Shown one piece after another: positions 48,464-49,815 of a stretch of DNA of 64,000 bases. A program made the translations under genes and the position numbers. Every line of letters begins with the position of its first letter. Within the stretch, counting starts at the first letter, position 1. The DNA comes from Haliotis rufescens (lineage: Eukaryota), in contig NW_025964223.1 of NCBI RefSeq assembly GCF_023055435.1, forward strand, positions 55,614,001 through 55,678,000, read 5' to 3'. Under the pieces are notes generated by a model. The model ran no database searches. It was given only the letters and a program-made list of their open reading frames with translations, and was not told where the DNA came from.

Positions 48464-49815
48464 TTAGAATCCCATCTGGAGCGCCAGCACCACGTGCAGG
48501 GCACTGGTGCCAATAAACAGGACAACTGCAGACACGCCTGTGATTTCCTTGGCTCCTGCGAACCATACAAAAATGAAAATATTTTATATCATAAATATAT
48601 TAATACTGTGTAACAAGAATAACCAATAATCTGAAGAAATTAGGGAACGAGGTGCAGTGTTGTGTCACTTAGCATGATCTCATGTTCCGGGTTCGAATCC
48701 CAGACACGACACTACCATGCAACTCCTAAAAAAACCAGTTCACAAGTAGAATACTAAAAGCATCTTCGTCTTACAGATAATGAAACTATATTCAAGGCAG
48801 TTCATCATTATATATGTACTACTTAATGATTCGTGTAAGAAACCGTTCGCACAACAATGCATTTCTTCCCTCCTATTTTGGTTAATACAATTCTATTGAT
48901 TCCTCGGTGTAGCATCTGTTTTGGTCCCTTGCTATCAGATTCGACTTTTTTCACGTTTAACATCTTTTCAGGGAGACATCGATACTTAAAATTGCCCCTA
49001 CTCCCTTGACCTTAAAGACGAAAGATTACAAAGGCATCAATTACTGAGACCAAAGACCCGTGAAGATCCGGGGTAGAATAGGTCTTCAGCAACCCATACT
49101 TGCCGTAAAAGGCGACTATGCTTGTCGTAAAAGGCGACTAACGGGATCGGATGGTCAGGCTCGCTGACTTGGTTGATGCATGTCATAGATCCCAATTGCG
49201 TGGATAGATGCTCATGATATTAATCACTGGATTGTCTGGTCCAGACTCGATTATTTACAGACCGCCGTCATATAGCTGGAATATTGCTGAGTGCGGCGTA
49301 AAACAACAAACCAACCAACCAACTGAGACCAAACATCAATGGTCCTTACTAAGTTGAATTGAATACACACCTGATGCCAGCATCAACAGCTGGTATTCTT
49401 GAAACTTTCTTTCCAACTGGGCCTCAGTCATACAATCCGGAGTATTTGATGAACCCTGAAAGATACTGCGGAAGAATTCCCCTATGACGGGTATTGCTGC
49501 AGCAAATATAGCTGCTCTCTTTTGCCTCCCGCCATCACGTACTTGCGTCTCCTCCATCATCAAGTTGGAATCTTGTCTACCCCCCTCTGTGTTCTCTGGC
49601 CATCTTGTAGACTTCATCGCGGACTGGATGTCAGAGCTGTGGTGCTCATACACATGCGCAGCATCAGCATCCGGAAAAGAGGCTGCTGAGTGGCTAAATG
49701 AGATTTCGGTCTTCACTTGATCTTGTGTCTCATTTCGTTGACTGACTGCTCTCATTGCCCGCACCGATTGTGTCGACAGGACAGTAAGGGCGAGAACTAT
49801 TGCCACCATTGCCAT
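48464..49815 (-). CDS. Gene F, complement(join(48464..48555,49371..49815)), 178-aa precursor: signal peptide, long acidic pro-region, RQKR site, short amphipathic peptide, GPI-signal-like tail
   Basis: ttacag|acaATG; MAMVAIVLALTVLSTQSVRA...GGRQKR|AAIFAAAIPVIGEFFRSIFQG; phase-1 donor G|GTGTGT; last exon GAKEITGVSAVVLFIGTSALHVVLALQMGF*; 537 nt in frame. Confidence 0.82.
49055..49321 (+). mobile_element. SINE-like family 3, full length, in gene F intron
   Basis: 12-bp TSD ACTGAGACCAAA (49043-49054/49322-49333). Confidence 0.92.

What the first reader, a model, noticed from the sequence alone, without database searches (positions are those of the whole stretch)
48464..49815. Gene F: furin cleavage would expose an N-terminal hydrophobic/amphipathic peptide on a short membrane-anchored stalk
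After a ~80-aa acidic pro-region, GGRQKR| is followed by AAIFAAAIPVIGEFFRSIFQG, a linker with one Cys, a short helix (TEAQLERKFQEYQLL) and the anchor signal. The topology of cleavage-exposed hydrophobic N-terminus, helix and anchor parallels class I viral fusion subunits in miniature. The peptide also resembles short cytolytic peptides of the temporin/pardaxin type. This is resemblance only, not demonstrated homology. The lone Cys could allow dimerisation.
Basis: partly seen in the sequence, partly recalled or inferred. Interest (0 to 1): 0.7.

Follow-up and report, generated by a model that had tools for sequence, protein, structure and literature searches.

The report
Abalone lipid-anchored helical mini-protein cluster
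This is a real, spliced abalone gene, the smallest and most divergent in a row of 13 similarly built genes, for a protein predicted to be cut by furin and held on the cell surface by a lipid anchor; it likely works as a sticky surface-coat module of somatic epithelia rather than as a miniature virus-like fusion protein.

Summary
The anatomy is real. Gene F is the abalone gene LOC124127165 (178 aa): signal peptide, 76-residue pro-region, RQKR, a neutral amphipathic 21-mer, one Cys, a short helix, and a hydrophobic tail on a second exon. The 815-base intron is spliced in 5 of 7 laid runs. The mature part is much better conserved than the pro-region across four abalone species. F is not a lone oddity: it lies in a roughly 150-kb row of 13 gene units with the same exon plan. 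Its siblings share a predicted five-helix bundle, and one sibling's orthologue is a trace protein of the outer shell. F's own kinship to them is weak by sequence. The class I fusogen reading fails on anatomy: only 27 residues and no heptad pair follow the peptide, and the anchor looks like GPI. The temporin reading lacks charge, amidation and release sites. Best guess (0.42): a GPI-anchored surface-coat or recognition module. A tethered membrane-gripping defence peptide is the main rival (0.28). No description was found in the searches made.

The parts
49756..49815 (-). Gene F signal peptide, residues 1-20 (cleavage after V-R-A inferred from the small-residue rule, no predictor run)
   Evidence: hydrophobicity scan; small residue at the same place in 4 of 4 orthologues
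49528..49755 (-). Pro-region, residues 21-96, mildly acidic, low-confidence/disordered in the model, far longer than in siblings
   Evidence: identity 64/76, 40/76, 38/76 to orthologues
49516..49527 (-). Furin-type site RQKR, residues 97-100 (RPKR in two orthologues)
   Evidence: cleavage itself not shown
49453..49515 (-). Apolar-then-amphipathic 21-mer, residues 101-121, net charge 0
   Evidence: moment 0.73, 2 of 10,000 shuffles; identity 19/21, 16/21, 18/21
49429..49452 (-). Polar linker, residues 122-129, with the only Cys (128, codon 49432-49434)
   Evidence: identity 7/8, 8/8, 6/8
49372..49428 (-). Second helix, residues 130-148, ending at the predicted GPI attachment residue Ser148
   Evidence: (helix 131-147, pLDDT about 55)
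48556..49370 (-). Phase-1 intron, 815 bases, GT..AG; holds a high-copy repeat at about 49055-49320
48464..48555 (-). Coding exon 2: 30-residue GPI-type signal (short spacer, hydrophobic tail, no basic cytosolic end) and stop
   Evidence: criteria from PMC7125958
47484..48463 (-). 3' untranslated region up to the only AATAAA found (47484-47489)
   Evidence: contigs over it
49816..49821 (-). Acceptor of a 5' untranslated intron three bases before the start codon; the upstream exon was not located
   Evidence: spliced contigs stop fitting at 49818-49821
44830..45623 (+). Sibling gene E: same plan, 353-base intron, GPI-type tail exon
   Evidence: joint in 3 of 4 runs, not in the DNA-like run
35226..35892 (+). 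Sibling gene D, coding exon 1, two tandem helical domains
   Evidence: tail-exon candidate
27090..28056 (+). Sibling gene C, coding exon 1, three tandem helical domains, basic site only before the first
   Evidence: tail-exon candidate
19398..19752 (+). Sibling gene B, coding exon 1; the likely start codon lies in another frame and the basic site is RPGR (broken copy or assembly error)
9384..11798 (+). Sibling gene A (LOC124125562): two helical domains on two exons
   Evidence: model of domain 1

Best explanation
Gene F encodes a precursor that is predicted to be cut by furin and GPI-anchored, leaving a 48-residue two-helix protein that likely sits on the outer face of somatic epithelial or blood cells as a surface-coat or recognition module. 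Shown: the spliced gene, its conservation, and its place in a row of 13 units with one exon plan. Inferred: the signal peptide sends it into the ER; the 30-residue tail is swapped for GPI at Ser148; the long pro-region keeps the apolar N-terminus soluble until furin removes it; the freed helix then packs its greasy face against the second helix and a second copy or partner held through Cys128, making a small bundle like the predicted five-helix domain of its siblings; that bundle binds a specific partner in the cell coat, mucus or shell-side matrix and can be shed. It would not merge membranes.
For: Same exon plan across the row: a G|GT donor right after the last helix at 12 of 13 exon ends examined, followed by a short hydrophobic tail exon (candidates for 9 units, E by reads, A, L002 and L009 genes in annotated models; none found for L005 or the second L009 unit). 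The 11 sibling domains are related: each scored above 200 of 200 shuffles against a profile lacking its own subgroup; HHalign 88-95% for 4 of 6 subgroup pairs. Their domain models as five helices, pLDDT 81.7, and siblings' first 21 residues have moments of 0.43-0.83, bracketing F's 0.73. Genes C and D repeat the domain without a cleavage site before the later copies, so a freed N-terminus is not needed by the family. F's polar linker and second helix are as conserved as the peptide, which fits a fold or partner better than a generic lytic helix (inference). The orthologue of the L002 sibling is made: three peptides, all in the mature domain, 0.004-0.007% of the insoluble prismatic shell matrix, with transcripts in a mantle and a haemolymph/tentacle assembly (PMC6003135 supplements). 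Spliced E and F both stand in runs X5 and X7.
Against: F's kinship to the siblings is weak: HHalign at most 2%, 25-40 of 500 shuffles reach its score on the family profile and 1-6 of 500 on the subgroup I profile, and shuffles destroy amphipathicity, so that control is lenient. F's own model is poor (pLDDT 42.7). Its first 12 residues are wholly apolar (mean 0.71-0.84), more than a two-helix protein needs, and its pro-region is four times longer than its siblings', as if masking something sticky. Its tail is the longest of the family and hydrophobic enough to span a membrane (19-residue mean 2.15-2.26). No tissue, cleavage, anchor or protein evidence exists for F itself; its peptides were not found in the shell data.
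Confidence: 0.42

Rival explanations
1. A tethered membrane-gripping peptide: after furin cleavage the apolar helix sinks into an apposed lipid surface (microbe, virus envelope, vesicle, neighbouring cell) while GPI holds the other end, so a Cys-linked dimer traps, damages or at most hemifuses the target, in the manner of a two-anchor tether such as tetherin.
For: Apolar first half and amphipathic second half; three upstream siblings also open with apolar Gly/Ala-rich stretches after a furin site; long pro-region; an artificial protein with tetherin's two-anchor plan works without sequence kinship (PMC3395152 passages); GPI-anchored haemagglutinin still hemifuses.
Against: Wimley-White interface sums are near zero (-0.83 to +0.75 kcal/mol before helix formation); net charge 0 against an average of +3.3 for catalogued antimicrobial peptides (PMC7596191); stalk of 27 residues against tetherin's long rod; near-invariant polar residues are unexplained.
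Confidence: 0.28
2. A shed signalling ligand: cleavage and GPI release free a conserved 48-residue peptide that acts on a receptor, as a mucus cue or paracrine factor.
For: Prepropeptide plan with a poorly conserved pro-region and strongly conserved mature part; abalone mucus is reported to release abundant water-soluble peptides proposed as cues (PMC5403342 passage; the primary paper was not available).
Against: Siblings look like folded surface domains, some in tandem; no amidation signal; the apolar N-terminus is poorly suited to a free water-borne cue (inference).
Confidence: 0.15
3. A free cytolytic peptide of the temporin/pardaxin kind, cut out of the anchored precursor.
For: Signal + acidic pro-region + basic site + amphipathic helix with a central Pro resembles such precursors (recalled, no call).
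Against: No dibasic or Gly-basic signal after residue 121; the only basic pair downstream is Arg-Lys inside the conserved second helix; net charge 0; no match in Pfam or PDB sequences at any useful score.
Confidence: 0.07
4. A miniature class I-like cell-cell fusogen, for example of gametes.
For: Cleavage-exposed conserved hydrophobic N-terminus and a C-terminal anchor, as in HA2 (PMC3397359); small fusogens exist (FAST proteins, Myomerger; PMC6504885); the tail could span a membrane.
Against: No room for two heptad regions; GPI-type tail with a mid-helix Arg in 3 of 5 orthologous records and no cytosolic part; intron-bearing host gene inside a native cluster; strongly conserved, whereas abalone acrosomal proteins including the fusagenic sp18 evolve under positive selection (PMC9022041 passages); the sibling with tissue data is somatic.
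Confidence: 0.05

Closest known systems
Small GPI-anchored surface proteins (CD52 as the smallest example, PMC7125958; furin-cut GPI proteins such as glypicans and RGM, recalled)
   Same: N-terminal signal, C-terminal GPI-type signal, very short mature chain; convertase site
   Different: No sequence kinship found; helical and almost Cys-free; long pro-region; found only in abalone records
Class I viral fusion subunits (influenza HA2 type)
   Same: Predicted furin cut exposing a conserved hydrophobic N-terminus on an anchored chain
   Different: 48-residue ectodomain, one short helix, no heptad pair, GPI-type rather than clear transmembrane anchor, intron-bearing host gene
Tetherin/BST-2
   Same: GPI at the C-terminus, helical stalk, Cys for possible dimers, a second possible membrane grip at the other end
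   Different: No N-terminal transmembrane helix or cytosolic tail; stalk far shorter; second grip is a cleavage-exposed amphipathic helix, untested
Temporin, pardaxin and other helical cytolytic peptides (features recalled)
   Same: Prepropeptide plan and an amphipathic helix with a Pro kink
   Different: Neutral, not amidated, not released by a downstream site, followed by a conserved helix and anchor
Abalone sp18 and lysin
   Same: Small helical abalone proteins; sp18 is fusagenic
   Different: No Pfam match to their family; those are secreted acrosomal proteins under positive selection
Uncharacterised Haliotis laevigata shell protein idb_35832/comp89562 (PMC6003135)
   Same: Orthologue of the L002 gene of this cluster; same precursor plan
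   Different: 86-residue mature domain, short pro-region; only weakly, if at all, alignable to F

Membership tests
Class I viral fusion protein | Precursor cleavage that exposes a hydrophobic peptide at the new N-terminus | tested here: met
   By sequence only: R-x-K-R in 4 of 4 species followed by an apolar 12-mer; cleavage not shown
Class I viral fusion protein | Two heptad-repeat regions that fold back into a six-helix bundle | tested here: not met
   27 residues between peptide and anchor, one 19-residue helix, best a/d register 4 of 6 large hydrophobics (feature)
Class I viral fusion protein | Transmembrane anchor | tested here: inconclusive
   Tail hydrophobic enough, but GPI-like site, no cytosolic part, mid-helix Arg in 3 of 5 records
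Class I viral fusion protein | Trimer | not tested
   No trimer job was run
Fusogen (gold standard, PMC6504885) | Necessary, present at the fusion site, sufficient to fuse membranes | not testable with these tools
   Criteria
GPI-anchored protein | N-terminal ER signal peptide | tested here: met
   Hydrophobic residues 1-14, small residue at 20 in 4 of 4 orthologues; no predictor run
GPI-anchored protein | Small omega and omega+2 residues, 20-30-residue signal ending hydrophobic, no cytosolic tail | tested here: met
   Ser148/Ala150, 30 residues, in 5 of 5 orthologous records; spacer shorter than the textbook 10 (criteria)
GPI-anchored protein | Lipid anchor actually attached (PI-PLC release) | not testable with these tools
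   Bench test
Temporin/pardaxin-type cytolytic peptide | Free short peptide released at both ends, often amidated (recalled) | tested here: not met
   No release or amidation signal after residue 121 in 4 of 4 species
Temporin/pardaxin-type cytolytic peptide | Net positive charge | tested here: not met
   0 for the 21-mer, -1 to -2 for the 48-mer
Temporin/pardaxin-type cytolytic peptide | Amphipathic helix | tested here: met
   Moment 0.73, 2 of 10,000 shuffles
Tetherin | N-terminal transmembrane helix with cytosolic tail and long coiled coil | tested here: not met
   Cleavable signal and 48-residue ectodomain (features)
The cluster's own helical-bundle family | Shared exon plan (acceptor just before ATG, phase-1 intron before a tail exon) and location | tested here: met
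The cluster's own helical-bundle family | Detectable sequence homology of the mature domain | tested here: inconclusive
   HHalign at most 2%; 1-6 of 500 shuffles on the subgroup I profile, 25-40 of 500 on the whole profile
Saposin-like or other known helical lipid-binding folds | Fold match of the sibling domain | tested here: inconclusive
   see Tried and rejected

The most novel reading that the evidence does not exclude
Gene F and its three apolar-ended siblings are furin-armed, GPI-tethered membrane-gripping peptides: an animal cell surface carrying amphipathic peptides on a lipid leash that catch, damage or hemifuse apposed membranes such as microbes or virus envelopes.
Probability: 0.15. 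Interest if true: 0.75.

Novelty: new variant of a known kind. Interest (0 to 1): 0.4.

Why it matters
The cluster is an unannotated family of abalone surface proteins with a peptide-precursor front end and a lipid-anchor back end, highly varied between copies but conserved between species in F. If it only builds the cell coat or mucus it is a modest addition to abalone biology. If the freed helix grips membranes while anchored, it would be a tethered form of peptide defence and a very small natural model of two-anchor tethering or hemifusion, testable with a 48-residue chain.

Tried and rejected
Distant homologues: of 3 hits in the 1.84-billion library, two (P0009, a Bacteroidota PKD repeat protein; P0010, a 61-residue tandem repeat) are sums of many stretches of about 0-6 bits and were dropped. 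Word-indexed searches gave only Haliotis records and one unnamed fragment (4, 1 and 8 hits); they missed several known cluster members, so absence outside abalone is not shown. Pfam: nothing near a cut-off. PDB sequences: none for F, best E 0.049 for the family. ESM Atlas: no usable hit. Fold searches with the sibling model: no Foldseek match at E 0.001 in PDB or BFVD, best VIA Z 9.5 to a dynein subdomain, under the level that counts for helical bundles; F's own model was too poor to search. Two-copy complex of residues 101-149: no verdict, score 0.02 against a mark of 0.32, alignment not used; no evidence either way. Own-genome searches found no second cluster (lower bounds). Metagenome pattern scan: 0. 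No holder on record as RNA was listed; contig depths (875 and 527 in two runs of one study, 3-12 in four others) cannot show expression level, and tissues are coded. A tree of mature domains put F beside subgroup I on a long branch with support 0.66 on an unreliable alignment. Literature: no paper held LOC124127165, three peptide words or three other locus ids; topic searches showed no description; six peptide words were absent from supplements of PMC9022041, PMC6952181 and PMC6523705, which are small, cut or hold few sequences, so this says nothing on gonad or ganglion expression. Earlier scan notes: nothing bearing on this.

Full report
Observation. The minus-strand frame 49336-49851 carries a signal-like start at 49815, RQKR at residues 97-100, the 21-mer, Cys128 and a short helix. 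A record identical over this exon is the 178-residue uncharacterised protein LOC124127165 of Haliotis rufescens; orthologous records exist for H. cracherodii, H. rubra and H. asinina at 92, 62 and 58%. The anchor signal lies on a second exon behind an 815-base GT..AG intron. Contigs join across this intron in 4 of 4 runs and 1 of 4, 5 of 7 distinct runs; the run that behaves as DNA crosses the exon borders unspliced. RNA status of these runs is the tool's guess.

More than chance. The best 11-residue moment in the 21-mer is 0.73, reached by 2 of 10,000 shuffles. Among 124 furin-type sites in 3,906 six-frame ORFs of 464 kb, 5 are followed by a stretch as hydrophobic; 4 are genes of this cluster. 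Identity to the three orthologues is 19, 16 and 18 of 21 in the peptide, 7, 8 and 6 of 8 in the linker, 18, 14 and 13 of 19 in the second helix, against 64, 40 and 38 of 76 in the pro-region. The peptide is neutral, the 47-48-residue ectodomain slightly acidic, the pro-region -6 here and -1 to -4 elsewhere.

Surroundings. Screening the window and 400 kb of flank shows a row from about 55.517 to 55.664 Mb of G000:C445 with 13 gene units including F: L002, L003, L005, a 5'-truncated copy in L007, two in L009, L010, and A-F in the window. A G|GT donor follows the last helix at 12 of 13 exon ends examined (the L007 copy was not among them, gene A gave two), and a short hydrophobic tail exon follows (none found for L005 or the second L009 unit). 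The 11 sibling domains tested are homologous (0 of 200 shuffles each; 88-95% for 4 of 6 subgroup pairs, 2 and 7% for the other two) and model as five helices with pLDDT 81.7 and pTM 0.68. Genes A, C and D carry two or three domains, with no cleavage site before the later ones. F is the outlier: longest pro-region, shortest ectodomain, HHalign at most 2%, 1-6 of 500 shuffles on the subgroup I profile and 25-40 of 500 on the whole profile. I treat it as a probable divergent member on gene plan and position, not on proven homology.

Outside evidence. In a greenlip abalone shell proteome (PMC6003135; passages and supplement searches seen) the orthologue of the L002 gene was identified by three peptides at residues 53-64, 79-90 and 97-105, all behind its basic site, at 0.004-0.007% of the insoluble prismatic matrix; its transcript is in a mantle assembly and in a haemolymph/tentacle assembly. 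The authors note that minor shell proteins include cell-derived ones, so this shows somatic expression and translation, not a shell function. Words from F and from other siblings were not found there (24 of 27 files, all 27, one unrelated hit). Spliced E stands in 3 of 4 runs, two of which also hold spliced F.

Anchor. A GPI signal spans 20-30 residues after a small omega residue, with a small omega+2 residue, a hydrophilic stretch and a hydrophobic end (PMC7125958, passages). F fits with Ser148 and Ala150 and a 30-residue signal in 5 of 5 orthologous records, has no basic cytosolic end, and 3 of 5 records have an Arg inside the hydrophobic stretch; but the stretch is hydrophobic enough to span a bilayer. 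GPI is likely, not shown.

Mechanism. Most likely (0.42) the processed 48-mer is a GPI-held surface module whose greasy helix is buried against the second helix and a Cys-linked copy or partner, as amphipathic helices are predicted to be in its siblings; siblings' first 21 residues have moments of 0.43-0.83, so amphipathicity alone does not point to membranes. All steps after transcription and splicing are inferred. Against this, the first 12 residues are wholly apolar, three siblings share that trait, and the pro-region is long, which keeps a tethered membrane-gripping role alive (0.28). A shed ligand (0.15), a free lytic peptide (0.07) and a fusogen (0.05) follow.

Comparison. Class I fusion proteins are trimers with a cleavage-exposed peptide, heptad regions that form a six-helix bundle and a transmembrane anchor (PMC3397359, passages). 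F has the first by prediction, has 27 residues and one short helix where the heptads should be, and a GPI-type tail; GPI-anchored haemagglutinin gives hemifusion without pores (PMC2120621, abstract). It is not a member, and at most could work like half of one. Catalogued antimicrobial peptides average +3.3 (PMC7596191, passages); the abalone peptides in a 2025 review (molluscidin, haliotisin, LGBP-derived peptides, macins; PMC11767717, passages) are of other kinds; features of temporins and pardaxin are recalled. Tetherin shows that two anchors and a helical stalk suffice to hold membranes (PMC3395152, passages), an analogy only. Abalone acrosomal proteins, including fusagenic sp18, are under positive selection (PMC9022041, passages), unlike F's mature part; I did not compute dN/dS. 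PMC6504885 (passages) gave the fusogen criteria, none testable here. PMC5403342 (passages) cites abundant mucus peptides of H. asinina; the primary paper and its sequences were not seen and could describe members of this family. PMC6952181 and PMC6523705 were searched in supplements only.

Novelty and verdict. No family name, structure match or paper was found in the searches listed under Tried and rejected, which cover open-licence papers only. The gene is real and conserved, the cluster appears undescribed, and the pairing of a peptide-precursor plan with a GPI signal is unusual, but the fusogen parallel is a resemblance that fails on anatomy. New variant of a known kind; interest 0.4.

Noticed in passing
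window 62803-63573 (+): Single-frame ORF with a signal-like start, basic sites, a long cationic stretch, an internal hydrophobic Gly/Ala-rich segment and a GPI-like tail; no significant similarity to the cluster family. Another candidate membrane-active surface protein.
   Followed up: partly
L005:1620-1961 (-), L009:1080-1442 (-), L010:7045-7368 (-): Three siblings whose furin sites are followed by apolar Gly/Ala/Ser-rich stretches at least as fusion-peptide-like as F's; good companions for any peptide assay.
   Followed up: partly
window 27090-28056 and 35226-35892: Genes C and D are about 95% identical and carry three and two near-identical domain repeats in one exon: recent duplication and internal repeat expansion.
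   Followed up: partly
window about 19370-19752: Gene B: the likely start lies out of frame with the rest of the exon and the basic site is degenerate; broken copy or assembly error.
   Followed up: partly
L007:2668-2946 (-): 5'-truncated duplicate of the L009 gene with its own tail exon.
   Followed up: partly
L003 about 5350-8100 (+): The tail exon of the L003 gene is followed by dozens of tandem copies of a unit of about 64 bases made from that exon itself.
   Followed up: no
window 49055-49320 and about 50950-51240: Very high-copy interspersed repeat, one copy in the intron of F and one upstream in the opposite orientation.
   Followed up: no
window 39369-41090: Long minisatellite that keeps several frames open; likely non-coding.
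   Followed up: no
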